Positions 1-56,040 of a DNA stretch of 64,000 nt are shown here, in pieces (position 1 is the first letter of the stretch; each line of letters opens with the position of its first letter). This stretch comes from Cetorhinus maximus (taxonomy: Eukaryota): the NCBI RefSeq assembly GCF_964194155.1, contig NC_135885.1:21514001-21578000 (forward strand), read 5' to 3'. Under the pieces are notes generated by a model. The model did not search any database. It was not told the DNA's origin and saw nothing but the letters and a program-made list of their open reading frames with translations. The translations under genes and the position numbers were made by a program.

Positions 1-390
1 TCTCTCCTGGAAAAGTATAGGAATGTCACTGTATTTGCATGACCAATTGTACTGTAAGCCAAGTCTTTCAGTATACAAACTGAAATGATTTTCTGATTGG
101 AAAGGTATTATGTTTATCACTTGTATATCATCAATCTAATGGCAACACTTGATATTGGTATTCACATTGACTAAACTAAGAAGGGTTCGGATAGCTAATA
201 GAAAGGGTCCAGCTTTGCTGCAATGCATGATTTCAGCTAAATTTCTTGACACTCAAGCCTATACTGCAATGAGCAATTAACTGCAGTCATAATTTCATGG
301 AGCTACATTTCCCATTGTAGAACAGATTTAGGCAATTAAATTTTTGATGCCTAGCATGTAGATTCAGACAAGATAATTTTTTTTTTAAAA

Positions 391-1120
391 ATTTGTTTGT
401 GGGATGTGGGCATTCCTGGCAAAGCCAGTATTTATTGCCTATCCCTAGTTGTCCTTGAGAAGATGGTGTAGGTACACCCGCTGTGCTGTTAGGATCGCAA
501 TTCCAGGATCTTGACCCAGCCGTCGTGAAGGAAAGGCTACGGTAGGCCCAAGTCAGGGTGGCGAGCGACTTGGAGGGGAGCTTGCAAGTAGTGGTGTCCC
601 CATGCACCTGCTGCCCATGTTCTTCCAGGTGCAGAGGTCATGAGTTTGGAAGGTTCTGTAGAAGGAGGCTTGGCGATTAGATGCAGTGCATCTGATAAAT
701 GGTACACAATGCTGCCATAGTGCACTATTTAAACTAGTCAATGGGGTACCAATGAAGCAGTTGTGTTGCCCTGGATGGTGGTGAGTTTCTTGAGTGTTGG
801 AGCTGGGCAGTATGCCATGACACTCCTGATTGGGATAGATTATTGACATGCTAGGCCATTTCACAGGGCAGTTAAGAGTCAACCACAATGCTGTGGGTCT
901 GGAGTCTCTGTAGGCCAGACCAGGTAAGGACAGCAGATTTTCTTCTTCTTTTATGACAATCTGAAATTTTTCACGGTCACCGTCACTGAGACAAACTTTT
1001 TATTTTATCCAGATTTATTTAAATAAATTGAATTTAAATTCCCCCTGTTGCCGTGGTGCGATTTGAGTTCGAGCCTCTGGATTAGTATTCCAGGAACGTT
1101 ACCGTTATGCTACAGAACCC
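391..1120 (-). mobile_element. Composite retroelement: tRNA-like SINE head and body fused to the 3' ~450 bp of a Crack/CR1-related LINE
   Basis: On the minus strand, 1120-848 matches the head and body at 16700-16990 and 1470-1740. The segment 840-391 matches the LINE 3' ends at 6067-6600 and 42180-42710. Confidence 0.75.
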
Positions 1121-1469
1121 ATTCGTGCCTATGCCAGTTTAGTGACAAGGCGGCGGATGAGAAACCCACAAGAACTGAGTCCGTATTGGGGGGAAAGGAG
1201 GGCTCAGAGTTTTGAAAAAAAATTGAGCCGTATATTTTAAAACCTCATGAATGCATTAAAAGATCCTTTATGGTTTGGATAAACTCTATGATCGTGTAGT
1301 TCATGGTATCTGGATTCAAAAGCCAGGGAAGATTTCTTCTGGCAAAATCATAAGTGCGTTCAGGAACTTGATCCTGATGTCTGGCAGTATCTTAAACGCA
1401 TTGCTTTAAACTGATGTTTATAACTAACAAAAAAGGGAGTAGAGGAAATTTTTCCTCCCAAAATAATGG

Positions 1470-2295
1470 GGGGGAGCTGGCGGTGGCAGCACATTGGCCA
1501 TGTCACTGGACTAGTAGTCCAGAGGCCCAGGTTCTGAGTATATGGGTTCAAATCCCTCCGCAGTAGCCGGTGGAATTTAAATTCAATTAATAAAAACTTG
1601 GAGTTAAAACTTAGTCTCAGTAATGGTGACTATGAAAACATTGCCGTTAAAAACCCATCTGGTTCACTGATGTCCTTACCCGGCCTGGCCTGCGTGTGAC
1701 TCCAGACCCACAGCAATTTGGTTGACTCATGATTGGCCTAGTTGTATGAAACTGCTGCGAAGTCTATAAGGAATGAAACCGGGTGGACCATTCAGCATCT
1801 ACTTAAGCACCAGAAGCTACAGTGGCAAGCCTAGCCCTGTCAACCCTGCAAAGTCTTCCTTAACTATGGAGGCTTGTGCCAAACTTGAGAGAGCTTTCCC
1901 ACAGAGTAGTGGCGACAGTCATATGCACCGAACCCTACCTTACAGATTATGTCCCAGACACTACCACCACCATCACTGGGTATGTCCTGTCCCCCTGGCA
2001 GGACGGACCCACGAGAGGGGGTGGCACAGCGGTATGGAGTCAGGAGGGAGTTGCTTCGAGTCCTCAACGTTGACTCCAGACCCAACGAAGTCTTATGGCA
2101 TCAGTTCAAACCTGGACAGGGAAACGTCCTACTGGTTAGCACCTACTGCCTCCCACCCGCATCCCCCTTCAGCTGATGAACACCATTTGGAAGGTGGCAA
2201 TGGAAAGACACAATGTCCTCTGGGTGGGGGCACTTCAACATCCATCACCCAGAGCGGCTCATAGCACCACTACTGACCAAACTGGCAGAGTCCAA
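1470..2295 (+). mobile_element. 5' part of a LINE: tRNA-like head followed by a decayed APE endonuclease N-terminus
   Basis: B-box GGTTCAAATCC at 1545-1555. ORF fragments include LRELSHR..TEPYLTDYVPDTTTTITGY....QD.PTRGGGTAVW and NVLLVSTY, which are APE motifs. Confidence 0.75.
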
Positions 2296-2499
2296 ATATG
2301 GCACCCGGGCATCCGACCCTGTAAGGTAACGGTGGAGCTGGCGAGTTCCTGCCTGTCCCCACCGCACGATTGTCCGGGGTTCTTGCCTCTGCACATTTAA
2401 CTAGCTGCCCGCTGCGTGATTGTGCATGGCCAGTCACTCAGTCTCCAAGCAGGAGCACTGCGGACTTCGCTTCTGCCATTGGGACCCTCGGCACGAGAA

Positions 2500-2920
2500 G
2501 AAGATTTCGTCCCAAGTTCCATTCACCCCTGTTCTTGCTGGCTTACATTAGCTCCTCTCCTGGCAATGCCTCAGTTTTTTTTGAAATCCTCTTCCTTGTT
2601 TTCAAATCTCCCCCATAACCTCGCTCCTCCCAGCTGAGTAACTTCCTTCAGCCCCGCAACCCTCTGGGGTATCGGCGCTGCTCTAATTCTGGCCTTTTGC
2701 GCATCCCCAGCTTCAATCACTGCCTCGTTGGCCTTCCGCTGCCAAAGCCCGAAAGCTCTGGGATTCTCCCCCTAAACACGTCGTCTTTGCCTCTCTACCT
2801 CAGGCACTCCATTAAAACCTACCTCTTTGACTAGGTTTCAGGTCACCTGTCCTTGTGCTGAATATTTGATAATGCTCCTGTGATGTGTTGAGGAAAGTTT
2901 TACTGCATTAAAGGCATCAT
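2500..2920 (+). mobile_element. L2-type LINE 3' end (degraded)
   Basis: cacccctgttcttgctggcttacatt...aaaacctacctctttgac...gctcctgtga is shared with copies at 14590, 57630 and 62590. Confidence 0.65.
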
Positions 2921-3205
2921 GAAAGTGTAAGGCACTCTTTGCCTTTTTATGGACCCTCTCCACCGTTCCTTAGCCAGAAATGTGTTTACAGTTAGGTCTT
3001 GAAAGTAGGTTCAAATGCATTCCTGTTAGTGAATTTTAAACTTTGTGCTTACGCAGTCATGCCGCATAAATGCTGTTAGTGCCCTTAGTGTAATGTAGCG
3101 GAAACCGATAAGAATTACCGGGCCACTTATATTTGTATTTAGTGGGACTGGAGGAGCTCGTGTGGGAGAAAAGCATTGGCTAATCGGAATTTTCTCTCGT
3201 TACAG

Positions 3206-3312
3206 AGTATACAAAAATGAAAAGAGAGCTGGACTTTCTAAAGACAACCTCTTACTTCGAGGCTGCACGATCAGAAATACAGAAGAAGTTGTGGGGATTG
3301 TCATCTATGCAG
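3206..3312 (+). CDS. ATP10A: P4-ATPase ATP10A-like internal exon (actuator domain, [36 protein letters not shown])
   Basis: tacAG acceptor at 3204-3205 and GTacgt donor at 3313. The LLLRGCTxRNT..G.VIYAG motif is typical of P4-ATPases. Length 107 bp, phase-compatible with the next exon. Confidence 0.93.
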
Positions 3313-5319
3313 GTACGTGGGTGCACGAGTGTGTATGTGTGTGTGTGTCTATGTGTGTTTGTGCAATATTCCTCTGAAGACCCAGGATGTTTCTCATTTC
3401 ATCCCCTACCCTAATTCAAGCACATCATTTGCTGTTAATGTACTTGTAGCCACCCAGAGCCTGCGAGACTGTATATCCATTTATTTTTTTTTAAAAAGCA
3501 TTAGTCAACAGAATATCTTCTGGTTTCCTGGTTCGTGTAACACAACCAGGGTTTCATTTCTGCCGCTCATAGTGGCAGAGTAGAATGGGGGAGGGGGTTA
3601 GCCGGGTTGTGGGGAGAGTTTGGGGAATGATAGCTGGGTTGGGGGGCTTTTGGTGGGTGGTTAGTCAGGTCAGGTGGGATGGGTAGTCTGATTGGGGCTT
3701 GCGATTGGGGCTATGGGTTGGCTTGACCTGTTAATCACTGAGTTACACCACAGATTAAACAGTGTAACAATTCTAGGGCATGCCTGGGTAAGTAGCCCAT
3801 ATCTAGCTCAAGCCTCTGACACTGAGATCAGTGTATAGACATTAGGAGAGGGTCCAGGGCAGCACAGGAAGTTTAAACTTCCCGGGCATTTAGCGTATGT
3901 GCGTGCATCAGGACTTCCTCAGGGCCCTGACCCACACCAGCAACACAAATTCAGCCCATTGCTGCTCCTGATACCAGAAGATCAGGCCCATTATCTTTTT
4001 TTTCTTTTGTTTTCCTTTATTTCTTTTTCTTCATTCCTTCTCTCACTCTTTTTAACCCCCTCTCCCTTTCTCTCTCTCATCCCCCTCTTCCCCCAGTTTC
4101 TTCACGCAGGTTACGCTTTTGAACGGTTGCTGTAATCTGCTGGCATTAATCAGCCTCTCGCTATTCCCAAACGTAGTTGTATTTTTTTACCGTGTATTTT
4201 CTATTTTCAGAGATCTCTGTGTTTTAAACTTATTGCTGCATCTCACCCCATAATCACGGTTTTGATAAGTCACAGGGCTTGTTGCTTCTAAGCTTACGTT
4301 TGATTGTCTTTAAATTTGTATTTATTCTAAAGTCAGACTTTGAAAAGCAAAGGACCATCATGTTTTGGCATTACTCTCTGAGTAAACCCATAACGTGCAG
4401 TCTGGTCCTGTTTTTCTTCCCTGTGTGAAGTCATAGTTCAGATCTCTAGGCTCAAGGATAAGGCTAGTGATGTAACGTCAACCAATGGAAATAAAAACCA
4501 CCAAGCATTGGACCGAATCAGCACATCATCAAAAGCATTGTGATTGTGATGCCTGAGCCCATTAAACCTGATTTAACGTGTTAATGTGCGTCAGGCATCA
4601 CTAAAACTGAAGGAGGGCAAAGCTGACTTGAAGATTTGCTTTGTTCAATCAAGCTATAACTCTTGGAAATAAGACGAGCTCCAAATTTGGAATGAAAAAT
4701 CCACGTGAGTTTGAAATAAAAACCTGAAATGCTTGACATTCAGATTGACGGCATCTAAAAGAGATTAAGTTTGAATGTGTGAATTCATAAGACTGGCCTG
4801 CCGTACATTTCCAGTCACTTCTGTTTCTGCTTATGGCTGACTTACGCACCTTTGGTACGAAACCAAGTGGTGTGCCAGTGGGGTGTATTTTAACGGGCAG
4901 GTAAGGGGGAGAACCACATTCTTTGCCATCCTGCCTGTACCAGCTCCATTCGGCTCAGAGTGCTTGCTGCTCACTGCCTTCAACACGCGAAAGATTCGTC
5001 TCTGATGAGCAGAAGGAGCTGACTGATCGATAAGCACCGTCCACTCATTAAAATGTGAATGGGAACACGTTGGGTCACCAGGGGGATTTTTCCATTTGCA
5101 GCTCTTGCTCTTCCAGCAGGTTTTGCACCAGCTGCCGCTAAGCTGCTGATGGTGCGCATTACTGCCTGTGCCTGGTATGGGCAATCCGGCAGAATTCAAG
5201 CACTAGAAATATACTTTCCCTTGTGCATTTGCGTCAACGCTCAAATGCACGAGACTTTGGCAGAACGGTGGTATGAAATCAACTTAATTTAAATACTTGA
5301 GATCATTAGCATGGTTGCC

Positions 5320-7235
5320 AGACGAGTCTCTTTGGATAAAGACATTTGCTCAGGCTCTCCACAAGAGATCATTAGCCAAAATGAAAGCACATATTATCGG
5401 AGGGAACTCTGGCATAGGTTGGTAATTGTTTCTGAGGTAGGGGGACTGAGAATAGTGATAAAGGGTCCATTATCTCGCTGGGATGCGATAAGTGGTATTC
5501 CCCGGGAACCCGTATTTGTGCCTCACCTTTTTTTCATATGCTAGCAGGGACCCACAAAACATTTTATGGTGAAATTGACATCATTATCGCAACAGTACTT
5601 TAAATCCTTGCCCTATGTCAACCCTGTCATGCCAGACCCATCCCATTCCTCTCATCCCTCTCACACCCCCATTCTGTCCCCCAACACACCACTTTTTTCA
5701 CATGCCATCAACATCCCTCCCATGCCACTCCCTCACCTTCCCATGCTGTGCACCCCTACCCCCTTTTAACCTTCAGGGAGTGCTTTATGTTCGGTGATGT
5801 TCCTCTGTACCTGTAAGATTATGATTGGTGGATTAGATATTTTTAAATTTTACTGTAACATTTTTGTATCCGGGCACCACCCACCAATAGATGCACCCCT
5901 TAAATTGACCAATTCAAACATTACAAATGGACAAAAATTGCATAGTATTATTATAATAGATTAACAACTTGGGTGAAGAAAGAGGGAGTTGCATATCCAA
6001 GTTTGCAGATAGCATTGTTAGGAGGTACAGTAATTTGTGGAGATGGGAACAGCAACTTTTAAAAAATCATTTACAGGATGTGGGTGTTGCTGGCTGGGCC
6101 AGCATTTATTGCCCATCCCTAATTGCCCTTGAGAAGGTGGTGGTGAGCTGCCTTCTTGAACTGCTGCAGTCCATGTGGGGTGTAGGTTCACCTACAGTGC
6201 TGTTAGGAAGGGAGTTCCAGGATTTTGATCCAGTGACAGTGAAGTAATGGCAATATATTTCCAAGTCAAGGTAGTGAGTGGCTTGGAGGGGAACTTCCAG
6301 GTGGTGGCGTTCCATGTATCTGTTGCACTTGTCTTTCTGGATGGTAGTGGTCGTGGGTTTGGAAGGTGCTGTCTGAGGAGCCTTGGTGAGTTCCTGCAGT
6401 ACATCTTGTAGATGGTACACACTGCTGCTACTGTGTGTCAGTGGTGGAGGGAGTGAGTATTTGTGGACGTGGTGCCAATCAAGTGGGCTGTTTTGCCCTG
6501 GATGGTGTCAAGATTCTTGAGTGTTATGGGAGCTGCACTCATCCAGGCAAGTAGGGAGTATTCCATCGCACTCCTGACTTGTGCCTTGTAGATGGTGGAC
6601 AGGCTTTGGGAAGTCAGGAGGTGAACTACTCGCTGCAGGATTCCTAGCCTCTGACCTGCTCTTATAGCCACAGTATTTATATAGCTAGTCCAGTTCAGTT
6701 TCTGGTCAATGAATACCCTCAGGATGTTGATAGGGGATTCAGCGATGGCAATGCCATTGAATGTCACGGGGTGATGGCTAGATTCTCTTTTGTTGGAGAT
6801 GGTCGTTGCCTGGCACTTGTGTGGCGCGGATGTTAATTGCCACTTGTCAGCCCAAGCTGACAACATGTATAGGGACAGGGACAGACAAACTGAGTGGGCG
6901 CATTTAGGACAGGTGGAGTTCAATGTGGCCATCCACTTTGGATCTGAGAGTTGAATCAGAATTTTTTCAAAGTGTCAAGAGTCATGGGGTTGTGGAGGAT
7001 CAAAAGGATTTAGATGCCTATGTGCACAAATTTGGAGGCGAAATGGTTCATGGATTGTTAGCCTTTATCTCAAGAGAGCAGGAATTTGGAACTGTACAAA
7101 ATCTTGGTCAAACCCACGTCTGAAGTACTGGCTTGGTCATTGTATGTTGGGGAAAAGTGCTTTGGATTTGGAAGAGCACCGTATAGATTCACCAGAAAGA
7201 TTCTGGGGCTTAAAGGGTTAAATTATGAAGACAGG
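5320..7235 (+). mobile_element. Old fragmented CR1 RT remnants (5320-5535, 5965-6020, 6865-7235) interrupted by younger insertions
   Basis: Degenerate CR1 ORF2 peptides such as ISKFADS and RFTRKILGLKGLNYEDR. Confidence 0.5.
6067..6860 (-). mobile_element. Crack/CR1-related LINE, 5'-truncated 3' end
   Basis: Encodes WADKWQ...IDQKLNWTSYIN...STIYKAQVRSAMEY...SLHH. The 3' tail is gggcaattagggatgggcaataaatgctgg. Confidence 0.85.
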
Positions 7236-16118: not shown

Positions 16119-16371
16119 GTGTTGATTCCGATCTCACTCTACGTTTCCATTGAGATCATTAAAATCTGCCAAGTATTTTTCATCCATCAAGACACAGACC
16201 TATATGATGAAGAGACAGACTCTCGGCTACAATGCCGAGCACTAAACATCACAGAAGATCTGGGGCAAATACAGTATATTTTCTCTGACAAAACTGGCAC
16301 ACTGACGGAAAATAAAATGGTGTTCAGACGATGTACTGTGGCAGGGGTTGAGTATTCTCACGATGCCAATG
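16119..16371 (+). CDS. ATP10A: ATP10A-like exon with the TM4 PISL motif and the P-domain phosphorylation motif DKTGTLT
   Basis: Encodes [12 protein letters not shown]...[30 protein letters not shown]. tgcAG acceptor and GTaagt donor. Length 253 bp. Confidence 0.97.
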
Positions 16372-16699: not shown

Positions 16700-17060
16700 G
16701 GGAGGTGATGGCATAGTGGTATTTGCACTGGACTAGTATTCCAGAGAGCCAGGGTAATGCTCTGGGCACCAGGGTTCAGATCATACCTTGGCAGATGGTG
16801 AAATTTGAATTCAATAAAATCTGGAATTAAAAGTCTGCTGAGTCTGAGCATGAAACCATTGTCGCTTGTTGTAAAAACTCATCTGGTTCACTAATGTCCT
16901 TTAGGGAAGGAAATCTTCTGTCCTTACCTTATCTAGCCTACATGTGACCCCAGACCCACAGCAATGTGGTTGACTCTTAAATGCCCCCTGAACAAGGGCA
17001 ATTAGGGATGGGCAATAAATGCTGGCCTAGCCAGAGGAGTCCACATCCCATGAACGAATT
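16700..17060 (+). mobile_element. tRNA-derived SINE sharing its 3' tail with the Crack/CR1-related LINE
   Basis: A-box TGGCATAGTGG at 16709-16719, anticodon-like stem ctgga/tccag and B-box-like GGTTCAGATC at 16773-16782. The tail at 16993-17059 matches the LINE tail at 42643-42710. Confidence 0.85.
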
Positions 17061-17908
17061 TTTTTTTAAAAATTGTCTTCATTCAGATTTGTTTCAATAA
17101 TTCATTTTCCATATGTCAGTGCGTTCTGTACGTGGTTCGTTAGGATATCGTAACTACCCAGTCCCTGGCTTAAAAGCACCAACCGTAGGCTGTCATGTTG
17201 TAAAACCCATTGTGACTACCTTTATCATCTCAGTGAAGCCCCAAAGAGAAGATTTTACACTGGAATCGAGTTATCTGATTTACCCCTGCCACCACTGAAT
17301 GGAAGTGGTTATAAGATTGGAAGATTAATAAGGTGTCAGTGGTCTGTCCATCCGGCACAACCCACCACAGAAAAAGGGAGGGTGAGAAATGACCAATGCA
17401 GTGAATGTAGAGCAAGCAGCTCAAATTAACAATCCTACAATATCAATTCTAATTTAGAACAATTTGTGGAGAATGTTCAGTATCAGCTGGTTAAAACTGT
17501 AAAATCAAACATTCGCTGCAGTCCTGTAATCTCTTCTACTCTGTACTAGACACCTATTACCCATACAGAGTATGAATGTACCATGTATAAGAAGGGAATG
17601 CACATATTTTGAAGGTAAATTTCTTTTTAATTTGGGGGATTTGAACTCCATTCATCCGTGTCGGAGTTCAGGCTGAAGCTGTATGGTGATGCACTGATCC
17701 GATTGCACCTGGTTTACTGTGTTCTGGTCACCATGGCACTACATGTCCACTCAGGCCCTGGTTGTAATGTGGAGAAGAGCAAGAAGATTAACACACTGTG
17801 ATAGAGGGATAAGTGTTGAGAAATGTCTTGATAAACAAAGACTCTATCCAGCCTCAGTAAACCTGTCTGAGAGGACCTTTATAAGGGTATGCAAGATTTC
17901 TTTTTAAT

Positions 17909-19128
17909 ATTCATTCAAGGGATGCTGGCTGGGCCAGCATTTATTGCCCATCCTTAATTGCCCTTGAGAAGTTGGTGATGAGCTGCCTTCTTGAACTGCT
18001 TGCAGTCCATGCGGTGTAAGTACACTCACAGTGCTGTTAGGGAGGGAGTTCCAGGATTTTGACCCAGCGACAGTGAAGGAACGGTGATATATTTCCAAGT
18101 CAGGATGGCTTAGAGGAGAACTTCCAGGTGGTGGTGTTCCCATGTATCTGCTGCCCTTGTCTTTCTAGATGGTAGCGCTCGTGGGTTTGGAAGATACTAT
18201 CTAAGGAGTCTTGGTGAGTTTCTGCAGTGCATCTTGTAGATGGTACGCACTGCCACTACTGTGCATCAGTGGTAGAGGGAGTGAATATTTACGGATGGGG
18301 TGCCAATCAAGTGAGCTGCTTTGTCCTGAAAGGTGTCGAGCTTCTTGAGTGTTGTTGGAGTTGCACTCACCCAGGCAAGTGGAGAGTATTCCATCACACT
18401 CCTGACTTGTGCCTTGTAGATGGTGGACAGGCTTTGGGGAGTCAGGAGATGAGTTACTCGCCCTCGCCGCAGGATTCCTAGCTTCTGACTTGGTCTTGTA
18501 GCCACAGTATTTATATGGCTAGTCCAGTTCAGTTTCTTTTCAATGGTAACCCCTAGGATGTTGACAGTAGGGGATTCAGCGATGGTAATGCCATTGAATG
18601 TCAAGGGGCGATGGCTAGATTCTCTCTTGTTGGGGATGGTCATTGCCCAGCACTTGTGTGGTGCAAATGTTACTTGCTACTTGTCAGCCCAAGCTGGATG
18701 TTGTCCAGGCCTTGCTGCATTTGGACATGGACTGCTTCAGTATCTGAGGAGTCGCGAATGCTGCTGAACATTGTGCAATTATCAAACATCCCCACTTCTG
18801 ACCTTATGATGGAAGGACGGTCATTGATGAAGCAGCTGAAGATGGTTGGGACTAGAACACTACCCTGAGGAATCCCTGCAGAGATATCATGGGGCTGAGA
18901 TGACGGTCCTCCAACAACCACAACCACCTTCCTTTGTGCTAGGCATGACTCCAACCAGCAGAGAATTTTCCCCCTTATTCCCATTGACTCCAGGTTTGCT
19001 AGGGCTCTTTGATGCCACACTCTGTCAAATGCGGCCTTGATGTCAAGGGTAGTCACTTTCACCTTACTTCTGGAGTTCAGCCCTTTTGTCCATGTTTGAA
19101 CCAAGGCTGTAATGAGGTCAGGAGCTGC
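17909..19128 (-). mobile_element. Crack/CR1-related LINE, RT domain to 3' end
   Basis: Encodes LDIKAAFDRVWH and PQGSVLVPTIFSCFIND, with the same 3' tail as the other copies. Confidence 0.88.
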
Positions 19129-19800: not shown

Positions 19801-20264
19801 GCTTGGATTTCAACTTAAATGCAATGGCCCCACCTGCCCGTCCGGGAAGTCAGGGGCGAGCTCACCTCTGCCTGCCCTGGAAGTCATGACTCTATATTGT
19901 TCAGGCAATTAATTGCCTGAAGTCATGGCTTCCACCCTTCTTGATGCCCCACCTTCAAGAGCTGCCAGCCAATGAGAGGACCGGCAGCTTTTCAGTCCCA
20001 GCAGTAGCACCACCACCCAGAGCACTGGCCGCTGCTGGGATTGTGGAAACCCTTGGACGAACGACCCCAGAGCAGGCCCAGAAGAGAGGTAAGGGATTGC
20101 CAGAACCATTGAGGCTCACTGGACAATCCTCCGTGGAGCAGGTGGTGTCCGATCAGCTTCCCTCCTTGCCCGCCGCCCCACAGCTTGTGGGTGGACAGCA
20201 GACTTGTACTTGTTTTCCAACTTTTCTAATGCTGAGCCACACTTGGGGATTTCAAAGACAGAGT

Positions 20265-20516
20265 GTTGCTCATGTTACTGATGGTGTTGCTCATGTTACT
20301 GATGGTGTTGCTCATGTTACTGATGGTGTTGCTCATGTTACCGATGGTGTTGCTCATGTTACCGATGGCGTTGCTCATGTTACCGATGGCGTTGCTCATG
20401 TTACCGATGGCGTTGCTCATGTTACCGATGGCGTTGCTCATGTTACCGATGGCGTTGCTCATGTTACCGATGGCGTTGCTCATGTTACCGATGGCGTTGC
20501 TCATGTTACTGATGGT
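20265..20516. repeat. 21-bp minisatellite, 12 copies (GTTGCTCATGTTACYGATGGY)
   Basis: Directly visible tandem array, 252 bp. Confidence 0.97.
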
Positions 20517-20748
20517 GATGAAGGAAGTTGTGGAATGATACTAGAAAATGCTCTAGACAGTGTTTCCTGTTGGAGAAGGTAAGAGAGGGGGACAGAAAGA
20601 GGATTGGAAAAGAGCAGAAAATTGGGATTCAATAGTCTAAAATATTGTTTTATTTTAGTTTAAGCACAATTCAATTTTTCAGTAGTTTGATTTTATATCT
20701 TTGACATTTTAATGTGCAGTTAATGTAAATCTCTTATTCCTTGAACAG

Positions 20749-49175: not shown

Positions 49176-51948
49176 TTGATCAACTTGTAAAAAGGCATGT
49201 AAATGACAAATTAATTTTGACATAGGGAAGTGTGTCGTGGTGTATTTTGATTGGGAGGATAGGAAGCCACAGGCTCCTTAGAAAATATAGTCTAAATGGG
49301 GTAGCGGAGCATTGGGATCTAGGGGTTTGCAACATTAAAAGACACAATGCAAGTTAAGGCCATAAATAATGCAAACAAAGCACTGGGGTTAATTTTTGGA
49401 GGAAGAATATCGAAAAGTAGGGAAGTTATGTTAACCTTGTGTAGATCCTTGGTTAGACCACACTTGGAACACTGTTGACAATTCTAGACTCCATAACCAG
49501 CCCTATTTATTTTCCCAGCCCTCTGAGAAGTAGGCTGCTCTCCTTAATTGGACGCCGGTCCTGGTGGCAGGCTCTTGATCAGCTGCCGCCACCGGTAAAA
49601 TCGTCCCCAAGGTCCTGCGCTGCTCGGTGACAGGAATGGAAGCAGGAGCCGTGTCCCCTTCGTCATTTTTAAACCCTGCCCTGCACACTGTGGCCCTGCA
49701 GCAGGATGGGAAAATCCAACCCCACGTTCACTGCCACATGTGACCGACTAGCCCCTACGAACTGCATCTCACCACTGGTCTGCGTCGGCTCGCCGACGAC
49801 ATGTGAGCAGTTTTGCCTGGAGCTAATTGGCGTCTGGCTACAGAACCAAAAACACCCATCACCTGAGCTCCGACACCAAATCTCAATGCTGTTCTCCTTC
49901 GCCACGTCACGGCATCGTGCCCAGAAGACTTTCAAACATGCAATTCCATTCGGGAAGTTTCCTCTTTAGCTAAGGGACCTGTGCTAATATTGTTTGGCTC
50001 CTGCACATCCAACTTCATTAAAGCTGCCAGGACTCACTGTATTTCGGGCTTCGGGCTCCTGGAAGTTTGACATTTAACTTGTGCTTCAGCCGCTCACTTT
50101 AATAACACTTAACGTTAGCGCAATATCAGCAAGAACTCGGTGGCACTGATCTTGTTCTTTTTTTTCCCTCAGCACTGCAGCCATCCAGTCTGTACCTTCA
50201 TTTTAGCGACTTTAGACTTGGCTAACTGTGTCTCATTTTCCCACCGGTCCATTCCACTCTGAATCAGATTGTTTGCTTCGTTCTGTTTTGGAAGCATTTT
50301 CCTCACCATATGGTTGGCATTCCTGTAGATTCCATTTTACCCAATAACTGAGTTATCAGAATTGTTCAAATGTTGCACATAAGGACATGACATAATCACA
50401 TTAACCAGAATCAGTGACGTACAGAGGGATTTCAAAACCCTGTTGTCTTTTTTCATGCCTCTTCTAGTGTCTATTTCACAGTCTGTCCCAAATGACCTTT
50501 TTATCTCATCTCGCACTTAATCACCTTTCTTCCAGTTCGAAGGACTCTCTCCATGTCCATTAAACCCATTAGCTGCTTTTCTGCGGTGACAGTAAGAATT
50601 TCTGACTCTTGGCATTCACCTCTGGCTCTCCGCTGGGTTTTATTTCGCTGCTTCCCATAATAGAGCTCTCTCGCCCTTTTCCAAAATGTTACTCAAATGT
50701 TAATCCAGCAAAAAGCAACGGGGGTAAAAAAAAAAGGATTGCGGTTGCTGGAAACCTGAAACAATAAAGTGAAAATGGTGAAAATGCTCAGCGGATCAGC
50801 CAGGGAACGCATGTTAATGTTTGAGGTGTCAGACAGGGTTATTTTAGTAAACTAGGTTTTAAGCACTTGCTGTTTAACTTGCCAGTCTCACACTCGTGTA
50901 CAGACAGGTGGGGGGGAGGGAGGGAGGGGGTAGCCATCTTGAAAATGTTTCTCATGGTGACTTCACAGCTGAATTTTCCCCTATACTGAAAAGGAGATTG
51001 GGGTCCTGAAGTTGGATAGCTCCATTTGTGGCATTTTTTCATAACCCCTTTTATCTACCAGGATGATAAAAGCCTCTTCCTTCGTTGACCGAGAAATGTA
51101 TTAGTTGCGTTGTTGTAAGAGCCACTCATTCAACTTGTACACCAAGTGCCCAACCAGCCAAGTATTTTAACACCCTGGTATGCAAGCTATTTCCTCGAGT
51201 TAGCAAACTTTAGAAAGCTCCATGTAGGTGTGACTCGTGAAGTCAGTTTTTTACAGCAGTTCAGTTGCGACTGTGAGACTCCAGAGTCTTGTGGCCTTGC
51301 CTAATATAAATCTTAATGGCAAGTGCTCCTCTAGGGAAGGGAAGTCGGTGCTTCTGGTAGAGATCTGATCACTGTGAACCCTTTGATTGCTGGGAAGTAG
51401 TCTGTACAATGTTGTGACGACACCCTCAGGATTTTGAAAGAAACTCCTGAGGATTTGCAATGTGACACAGGCAGCAATTAGACCAGTAGGCATGTTTTTT
51501 TTTTAATTCAATATTGTTGCTTTAGAAATTTACAAGTTAATGAGGTATGAGAATAATAAGCTTAAGAATCCTGTGAGAATCTCTGTGAGAAAAGAAATAA
51601 TGGTTGTGCACTGGCCCCAGCCTGCTCATTCGCTGTGTAAGAGTTTGTTTGGGGTCCTGTATGCGTTAGGCCTCCTCATTAATCAACTTTGCTTGTCCCT
51701 CTGAGAAATCAATATCAATCTTGTGTTGAGCAAATAGATTGTAAAACTCCCCAATCTAGTGTCTTGCAATCTTGATTGATAGCATTTTAAGAGTGTCCTC
51801 CACATATCTCCGCACTATCATTCCTCCTTTGAATATCACACGTTGGCGACAAACGTTTGAAGCACATTTAAAATGATTAAAAGCACTATTCCATTGTTGC
51901 TGCTGCCGCCCACAAGAAGATCTACAGCTATTGAACACCCCTGTCTTT

Positions 51949-55224: not shown

Positions 55225-56040
55225 AGTATAGAACCTTATAGCATAGGAGGTGGCCATTTAGCTCATCAAGCGCTGTCCAATTTAGTCCCGTTTCCCTAGC
55301 TTTATCCTCATAACCTTACAAATTAGTCCTCTTCAAGTTCATGTCCAATTGCCTTTTATGTAGCACATCCGATTTCAGGCAGCGGTCTAGTTCTTAACAA
55401 TCCTCGTGTGGGGCATGGGTGGGTGTGGATGTGCGTATGTGGGTGTGGGGTGTGCGTATGTGGGTGTGGGGTGTGCGTATGTGGGTGTGGGGTGTGCGTA
55501 TGTGGGTGTGGGGTGTGCGTATGTGGGTGTGGGGTGTGCGTATGTGGGTGTGGGGTGTGCGTATGTGGGTGTGTGCGTATGTGGGTGTGGGGTGTGCGTA
55601 TGTGGGTGTGGGGTGTGCGGATGTGGGTGTGGGGTGTACGTATGTGGGTGTGGGGTGTGCGTATGGGGGTGTGCGTATGGGTGTGGGTTGTGCGTGTGTG
55701 GGTGTGGGTGTGCGTATGTGGGTGTGGGGTGTGCGTATGTGGGTGTAGGTTGTGCGTGTGTGGGGTGTGCGTATGTGGGTGTGGGGTGTGCGTATGTGGG
55801 TGTGGATGTGGGTGTGGGGTGTGCGTATGTGGGTGGGTGGGAATCACCCTCTTGTTCCTCTGGTAATTATTTTGAATTGACGACCTCTGATTACCGCCCC
55901 ACTTGTGGAGAAACAGCTTCTCCCTATTGGCTCTGTTCAAAAGAAAAAAGCCTCGCCATTTTGATCATCTCCTCCAGGTCCCCCCTTCATCTTCTCTCTG
56001 CACTAAAGAGAATAATCCCAGCTTCTCCAGTCTCATCCAG
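55225..56040 (-). mobile_element. CR1 3' end interrupted by a G-rich minisatellite
   Basis: CR1 3' UTR at 55225-55405 resumes at 55840 (cccctcttgttcctctgg...). Confidence 0.65.
55415..55840. repeat. G-rich 21-bp minisatellite (ATGTGGGTGTGGGGTGTGCGT)n
   Basis: Directly visible, about 20 units that decay toward the right. Confidence 0.95.

What the first reader, a model, noticed from the sequence alone, without database searches (positions are those of the whole stretch)
1470..2295. Possible tRNA-headed LINE with no ORF1
Seen: 1470-1740 is homologous to the head and body of the SINE at 16700-16990, with a B-box GGTTCAAATCC and a ctgga-CTAGTAG-tccag anticodon-like arm. It lacks the SINE tail. 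About 100-150 bp later it runs into the start of an APE endonuclease (PNLRELSHR, TEPYL, ITGY...RGGG). There is no room for an ORF1. Known: LINEs normally use Pol II 5' UTRs, and SINEs usually borrow only the LINE 3' tail. Inference: the autonomous partner of the abundant Crack/CR1-related LINE here may begin with a tRNA-derived internal promoter, making it a SINE-capped, single-ORF LINE. I cannot tell whether it is already catalogued.
Basis: partly seen in the sequence, partly recalled or inferred. Interest (0 to 1): 0.72.

Follow-up and report, generated by a model that had tools for sequence, protein, structure and literature searches.

The report
Shark LINE with tRNA promoter head
This is a dead front-end piece of an abundant shark jumping gene that codes for its own copying enzyme yet begins with the tRNA-type promoter of short non-coding repeats and lacks the T-runs that stop the tRNA polymerase, so it is likely a protein-coding element made by that polymerase (untested).

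Summary
Confirmed at family level. Window 1468-2296 is the first ~907 nt (73% identical) of a ~3.29-kb LINE: tRNA-Ser-like head with A/B boxes, SINE body, one endonuclease-RT frame, no ORF1, SINE-shared tail with poly(A). Searching with the endonuclease side alone, 28 of 29 other copies have the head/body directly upstream. The SINE at 16700 is the LINE's first 293 nt joined to its last ~76 nt. The family is already catalogued as elasmobranch Zenon (Stuart 2026, not Crack), and the published consensi carry the head, but 'tRNA' occurs nowhere in that paper's text or supplement. Coelacanth and hagfish Zenons lack it. The sense strand lacks TTTT (0.28/kb in 43 copies against 4.3/kb in CR1 of similar T content; TTT 4 against 12.9 expected). 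TTTT = 0 alone is not significant under codon shuffling (P about 0.08). The frame is under purifying selection, yet in most copies its only upstream in-frame AUG is followed by a stop. Best reading: Pol III-transcribed coding LINE (about 65%); no transcript evidence. The scan noted this family before on other DNA.

The parts
1468..1560 (+). tRNA-Ser-like head: decayed A box (1484-1497), anticodon-like arm (1506-1522), B box (1545-1555)
   Evidence: family head best matches genomic tRNA-Ser(GCT), z 10.5, among 33 distinct tRNA sequences of 9 anticodon labels tested
1561..1745 (+). SINE body (Deu-type by literature description), older-subfamily version, with a 24-nt deletion and loss of the AUG-GCC-UAG site
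   Evidence: Deu label from PMC5499810 and recall, not from a sequence comparison
1746..1855 (+). LINE-specific linker encoding a basic N-terminal extension in the endonuclease frame; contains an out-of-frame AUG
1856..2296 (+). APE endonuclease fragment, frameshifted; homology to the family ends at 2296
   Evidence: Pfam PF03372/PF14529 on other copies
16700..17062 (+). Short SINE: LINE nt 1-293 (16700-16992) joined to the last ~76 nt (16993-17062)
378..1110 (-). Second head-bearing copy with an internal deletion (head and body to about nt 305, then nt ~2816 to the tail); junction not found elsewhere
   Evidence: none of the 40 non-self matches spans the junction
6064..6857 (-). 5'-truncated 3' fragment of the same LINE (nt 2491-3286, 91%)
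17902..19127 (-). 5'-truncated 3' fragment of the same LINE (nt 2054-3290, 90%)
41660..42710 (+). 5'-truncated 3' fragment of the same LINE (nt 2236-3286, 93%)

Best explanation
The feature is a decayed 5' fragment of a single-ORF Zenon LINE of sharks and rays whose whole family begins with a tRNA-Ser-like head and SINE body, and which is likely transcribed end to end by RNA polymerase III from that internal promoter. Shown: head, body, one EN-RT frame, shared tail and poly(A) form one unit; the sense strand is depleted of T-runs; the frame evolved under purifying selection; local SINEs are the two ends of the LINE. Inferred: TFIIIC binds the A/B boxes and Pol III reads about 3.3 kb because internal terminators were purged; the uncapped RNA is translated by a non-standard route (most likely termination at the AUG-GCC-UAG mini-frame followed by AUG-independent restart, with a plain in-frame AUG in the youngest subfamily); the protein binds the tail and inserts a copy by target-primed reverse transcription. 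Inferred history: an ORF1-less Zenon gained head and body from an older Deu-type SINE in the elasmobranch line; since then any deletion that keeps both ends yields a complete SINE.
For: Head linkage: 28 of 29; of 65 endonuclease-bearing copies 50 reach into head/body, 34 to within 30 nt of the 5' end, and the 15 others stop at scattered points with no shared alternative 5' sequence. Copies L053 and L055 sit inside other repeats that continue on both sides. T-runs: 0 TTTT against 15 AAAA in the majority sequence; TTT 4 against 12.9 in synonymous-codon shuffles, 0 of 5000 as low; 34 TTTT in 121,424 nt of copies against 73 in 17,055 nt of CR1 frames at 21% and 23% T; 8 of 8 real frames under their shuffle mean for TTT, CR1 frames near theirs; all 50 long frames from related metagenome loci have 5 or more TTTT. 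Selection: shared variants 58 synonymous of 126 against 483 of 2041 singletons, P 1e-7; endonuclease part 13 of 25 against 120 of 496, P 0.004. Published shark and ray consensi all start with the head; coelacanth and hagfish ones do not (first 400 nt seen). Contigs from four organisms bridge body and LINE part.
Against: No transcript evidence: only contigs of runs guessed to be RNA were available, which show no start, strand or polymerase. TTTT = 0 alone has P about 0.08 under codon-preserving shuffles; part of the depletion is low T and C-ending codons. Only 4 of 29 copies are open from the AUG to the endonuclease, and no in-frame Met occurs until residue 291; no unusual RNA structure lies before the endonuclease. 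In a sample chosen by the Pfam endonuclease model only 3 of 8 copies reach the head (ordinary 5' truncation). No intact copy was found. Known Pol III RNAs are short and non-coding (PMC10498592, passages).
Confidence: 0.65

Rival explanations
1. The head is fixed to the LINE but the coding RNA is made by Pol II (from a promoter in the body or linker, or by read-through from host genes); T-run scarcity is a compositional or RNA-stability by-product.
For: Pol II gives a cap and is the rule for LINEs (PMC5786205, part 4). The element is T-poor (about 20%) and TTTT = 0 is not significant with codon usage held fixed. Copies are common in introns.
Against: CR1 frames of similar T content keep 4.3 TTTT per kb; TTT depletion survives codon shuffling; depletion is strand-specific (AAAA normal); A and B boxes are kept in consensi of five species while the spacer differs. 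Read-through transcripts would not put 34 of 65 5' ends at the head.
Confidence: 0.25
2. Head-bearing long copies are mostly non-autonomous Pol III passengers (a very long SINE-like RNA), mobilised in trans by a rare headless or open-AUG master.
For: Most copies have a stop two codons after the AUG and ten have a second in-frame stop; no intact copy was found.
Against: Shared variants are biased to synonymous changes across the frame; no alternative 5' end among 15 truncated copies; the stop is in the consensi of five species, too long for a passenger to keep an open 975-codon frame.
Confidence: 0.07
3. One-off insertion of a SINE upstream of an unrelated LINE fragment.
For: Both repeats are abundant; this copy is only 73% identical to the family.
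Against: 28 of 29 independent loci share the arrangement at the same spacing; five published consensi agree.
Confidence: 0.01

Closest known systems
Elasmobranch Zenon LINEs (CarCar_Zenon-1, RhiTyp_Zenon-1, ScyCan_Zenon-1, SquAca_Zenon-1/2/3, HypSab_Zenon-1; Stuart et al. 2026, PMC13343379)
   Same: Same family: the first 400 nt of CarCar_Zenon-1 read almost letter for letter like the majority sequence here (compared by eye), length 3288, no ORF1, poly(A) tail.
   Different: Nothing in the sequence; the paper does not mention the head ('tRNA' and 'polymerase III': 0 hits in the main text; 'tRNA': 0 in the supplement as held), the SINE link, T-run depletion or the start-codon problem.
SacSINE1 / LmeSINE1 DeuSINEs (PMC5499810; table in PMC3747384)
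   Same: tRNA head, conserved body and LINE-type tail in sharks; the SINEs here fit the description.
   Different: Described as non-coding and sharing only the tail with a LINE (L2-2_CM or CR1-4_DR-like); here a coding LINE shares head, body and tail. Sequence identity to SacSINE1 not tested.
Persaeus SIDE and lepidopteran CR1-Zenon (PMC6740152)
   Same: Single-ORF 3.3-kb Zenon giving repeated two-ended deletion derivatives.
   Different: Persaeus has no tRNA homology or Pol III promoter; here the derivative is a true tRNA SINE because the LINE carries the head.
Bipartite SINEs of RTE and Vingi LINEs (Kojima 2018, PMC5786205)
   Same: SINEs holding both 5' and 3' LINE sequence.
   Different: There the tRNA head is added to the non-autonomous derivative only, and no LINE similar to a conserved SINE body had been found in Repbase.
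L1 ORF2 AUG-independent translation (review PMC11485995, passage); R2 uncapped translation (recalled)
   Same: Precedent for a LINE frame translated after a stop or without a cap.
   Different: L1 is a capped Pol II RNA with a full ORF1; R2 is a Pol I co-transcript.

Membership tests
Elasmobranch Zenon LINE | Sequence identity to published consensi | tested here: met
   Exact motif hits and by-eye match over the first 400 nt; length 3288 against about 3290. Cells are cut at 400 characters, so the rest was not compared.
Elasmobranch Zenon LINE | Single APE-RT frame, no ORF1 | tested here: met
Elasmobranch Zenon LINE | Poly(A) tail | tested here: met
   Short A-rich ends in most copies, often with T-run before
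Elasmobranch Zenon LINE | RT phylogeny with reference Zenon sequences | not testable with these tools
   No Repbase/Dfam library; classification taken from PMC13343379
   No tree with references; the matching published consensus is classed Zenon
tRNA-derived SINE head | A and B boxes at tRNA spacing and similarity to a tRNA | tested here: met
   (best tRNA-Ser(GCT), z 10.5; Ser genes were fetched on purpose and only 9 anticodon labels were compared). ARAGORN and Rfam do not call it.
DeuSINE (SacSINE1) | Deu domain in the body | not testable with these tools
   No Deu consensus available: PMC1484453 not held, PMC5499810 supplement unreadable; label from description and recall
Pol III transcription unit | No internal T4+ on the sense strand | tested here: met
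Pol III transcription unit | T-run terminator at the 3' end | tested here: inconclusive
   About half of classifiable ends have 2-9 T before the A-run, half have one; may be post-insertion change
Pol III transcription unit | Pol III occupancy, uncapped start at nt 1 | not testable with these tools
   Only contigs available

The most novel reading that the evidence does not exclude
An autonomous, protein-coding retrotransposon transcribed over 3.3 kb by RNA polymerase III from a captured SINE promoter, translated without a cap and, for most of its history, without an in-frame AUG, with the conserved Deu body serving in ribosome recruitment; it has persisted since before the shark-ray split and makes its own SINEs by single deletions.
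Probability: 0.55. Interest if true: 0.9.

Novelty: new variant of a known kind. Interest (0 to 1): 0.72.

Why it matters
LINEs are taken to be Pol II elements and Pol III RNAs to be short and non-coding. A natural Pol III mRNA of 3.3 kb would break both rules and give a system for studying cap-independent translation. It also bears on two open questions in SINE biology: how SINEs arise (here one deletion suffices) and what conserved bodies such as Deu do (here one is the 5' leader of a translated frame). The tests are simple: 5' RACE, Pol III ChIP, and a reporter with inserted terminators.

Tried and rejected
One-off SINE insertion: rejected. Hidden ORF1: the longest AUG-started frame in the first 480 nt is 63 codons. 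Alternative 5' end: none among 15 truncated copies. Head in relatives: none in 80 metagenome loci by blastn, nhmmer or, for 41 of them, ARAGORN; viral contigs gave only 3 weak hits. Long target-site duplications: none scoring 7 or more in 19 copies, only a weak excess over mismatched flanks (mean 2.5 against 1.3, P 4e-4); L053 has about 11 nt, and the 11-nt overlap that blast gave for L055 is by eye 0-2 nt. IRES-like structure before the endonuclease: z about 0 or positive. Simple read-through of the UAG: unlikely, since 13 copies share a second in-frame stop. A conserved slippery site from the out-of-frame AUG: none seen by eye across published consensi. Per-copy conservation of A/B boxes reflects decay after insertion and was not used. 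Tree of 43 copies is star-like and the start-codon label is not significantly clustered. The 378-1110 deletion copy is not a family. Self-insertion avoidance as cause of T scarcity: does not explain normal AAAA counts (inference).

Full report
Observation. Window 1478-1738 aligns to the SINE at 16700 (score 190; best of 200 shuffles 41) and is followed about 115 nt later by endonuclease motifs in one frame. The window lies in introns of a P4-ATPase-type gene (exon-like peptides at about 3196-3313 and 16245-16371; label recalled) in a 4.0-Gb genome.

Is the join a family trait? I searched the genome with 1740-2295 only, so hits were chosen without regard to the head. Forty matches were scored and 30 fetched; of the 29 non-self loci, 28 have SINE head or body directly upstream on the same strand (one with only 33 nt), and L029 is a 5' inversion. 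Extending 20 of them and searching with a full copy gave many ~3.2-3.3-kb elements running from head to the SINE's tail. Over 65 endonuclease-bearing copies from three searches (one biased to full length), 34 start within 30 nt of the 5' end, 16 more inside head or body, and 15 at scattered points from nt 345 to 738, with no shared upstream sequence apart from a tandem repeat in two. In the set chosen by the Pfam model alone, 3 of 8 reach the head or body. L053 (in a CR1) and L055 (in another copy of the family) interrupt host repeats that resume after the tail, so head to tail inserted as one unit. The window copy covers nt 1-907 at 73% and then stops; its head has older-type diagnostic bases.

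Anatomy. A majority sequence of 43 copies has a head with A box and B box, a body to about nt 310, one frame of about 975 codons (one stop at a CpG-decay column), a stop inside the last 76 nt, an AATAAA and a short A tail. Pfam finds the APE endonuclease and RVT_1 in real copies. The head is closest to genomic tRNA-Ser(GCT) (z 10.5) among 33 distinct tRNA sequences; Ser genes were fetched on purpose and many isotypes were not tested. ARAGORN and Rfam do not recognise it. There is no ORF1. The nearest proteins outside sharks are 950-983 aa at 35-41% identity; the nearest locus with DNA, L111, also has no upstream frame and no head.

SINE relation. The majority of 30 SINE copies equals LINE nt 1-293 plus its last 76 nt, with 8 differences in 292 nt and 5 in 76; the join falls at the LINE's AUG. 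A longer SINE form joins about 23 nt further on, and one copy has a third join; the longer join also dominates loose ends in four other runs. Old-type head bases occur in 3 of 5 long SINEs and in LINE copies at window 1470, L024 and L015; young-type bases in short SINEs and most LINE copies (many sites unscored, tree poorly resolved). Heads of SINE and LINE thus appear to change in step, as expected from repeated deletion or exchange.

Pol III signature. The majority sequence has no TTTT in 3.28 kb but 15 AAAA, 11 CCCC and 9 GGGG. With codon usage fixed, TTT runs are 4 against 12.9 (0 of 5000 shuffles as low), while TTTT is 0 against 2.1 (P 0.078); base shuffles give 4.4 (P 0.011). One CR1 control has 10 TTTT in 1,713 nt. 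Ten frames of a second CR1 family at 23% T have 73 in 17,055 nt; the 43 copies at 21% T have 34 in 121,424 nt; over whole elements the commonest site (11 copies) is a TTT-CG decay position. Eight of 8 real frames lie under their shuffle mean for TTT; the CR1 frames and L111 are near theirs, and L115, a low-T relative, is somewhat under for TTTT (6 against 10.8). Of 80 metagenome loci, 50 had a frame of 450 aa or more (46 matching this protein) and all have 5 or more TTTT. About half of classifiable 3' ends show a T-run before the A-run, which could be terminator relics or later mutation.

Coding and start. Variants shared by 5 or more copies (CpG-type excluded) are 58 synonymous of 126, against 483 of 2041 singletons (P 1e-7); the endonuclease part upstream of the first in-frame Met (residue 291) shows the same (13 of 25 against 120 of 496, P 0.004). 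So the endonuclease was translated, though the only upstream in-frame AUG reads AUG-GCC-UAG in most copies and 13 copies share a second stop. Four of 29 copies are open from the AUG to the endonuclease. The seven labelled copies with the shortest branches (0.027-0.040) all have a sense codon there and all stop-bearing copies are at 0.044 or more, but the tree is star-like and the label is not significantly clustered. Restart after a stop without AUG has precedent in L1 ORF2 (PMC11485995, one passage); this is my preferred, untested route.

Other species. Contigs from four organisms cover all 30 bins, and each of four runs has at least one contig bridging body and LINE part with 31 or more letters on both sides. 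These runs are only guessed to be RNA and show no strand or start.

Literature. I read its outline, passages and supplement searches: Zenon lacks ORF1, has poly(A), and among vertebrates is found in elasmobranchs, coelacanth and hagfish. The consensi of five shark and ray species begin with the head and contain the AUG-GCC-UAG site; in two of five its spacing to the endonuclease frame differs by a non-multiple of three (by eye). Coelacanth and hagfish Zenons lack the head in the 400 nt shown. PMC5499810 (parts 1-3 of 6) describes head-Deu-tail SINEs in sharks, chimaera and coelacanth; with headless outgroup Zenons this favours capture of the SINE front end by the LINE, then repeated deletion. 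PMC5786205 (passages and part 4) found no LINE similar to conserved SINE bodies. PMC6740152 (passages) describes headless Zenon deletion derivatives. Also seen as passages: PMC7245038, PMC11481361, PMC3747384, PMC10498592 and 10.1101/443036. Ten searches listed no paper describing a tRNA-headed or Pol III-transcribed LINE; Repbase, Dfam, subscription journals, Nishihara 2006 and the PMC5499810 supplement were not seen and could bear on novelty and on the Deu label.

Verdict. The structure is established and the family is catalogued; the head, SINE relation, T-run depletion and start-codon puzzle appear unremarked in print. Pol III transcription is the best-supported mechanism (about 65%) and is directly testable. 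The scan has reported the family repeatedly (17 notes by words, 30 in this genome); those are not independent support.

Noticed in passing
window 378-1110 (-) and 1468 (+): Two head-bearing copies sit back to back about 360 nt apart; the left one is an internally deleted two-ended copy whose junction was not found elsewhere.
   Followed up: yes
3' ends of LINE and SINE copies, e.g. window 17049-17062, L021, L033: About half of the ends have 2-9 T before the A-run, with longer T-runs going with shorter A-runs; terminator relic or quasi-palindrome conversion.
   Followed up: partly
L041, L044, L047, L050, L052, L057, L058: Young subfamily with a 12-nt deletion just before the AUG and a sense codon in place of the UAG.
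   Followed up: partly
runs X10 and X18, L053 1797 to 4575: A further two-ended join that keeps a longer 3' part, at high depth in one run.
   Followed up: no
window 3196-3313 and about 16245-16371 (+): Exons of a P4-ATPase-type gene ([36 protein letters not shown]).
   Followed up: no
window 36783-37200, 20263-20520, 55406-55839: Tandem repeats with units of about 60, 63 and 140 nt; a run of N follows at 37201-37688.
   Followed up: no
window 47968-49249 (-) and related pieces: Canonical CR1 fragments, used as control; a second CR1 family with long open frames occurs at L311-L321.
   Followed up: partly
   Followed up: no
L145 about 395-430: A related invertebrate-type LINE locus has a B-box-like motif at the start of its frame, but the frame has 16 TTTT.
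   Followed up: partly
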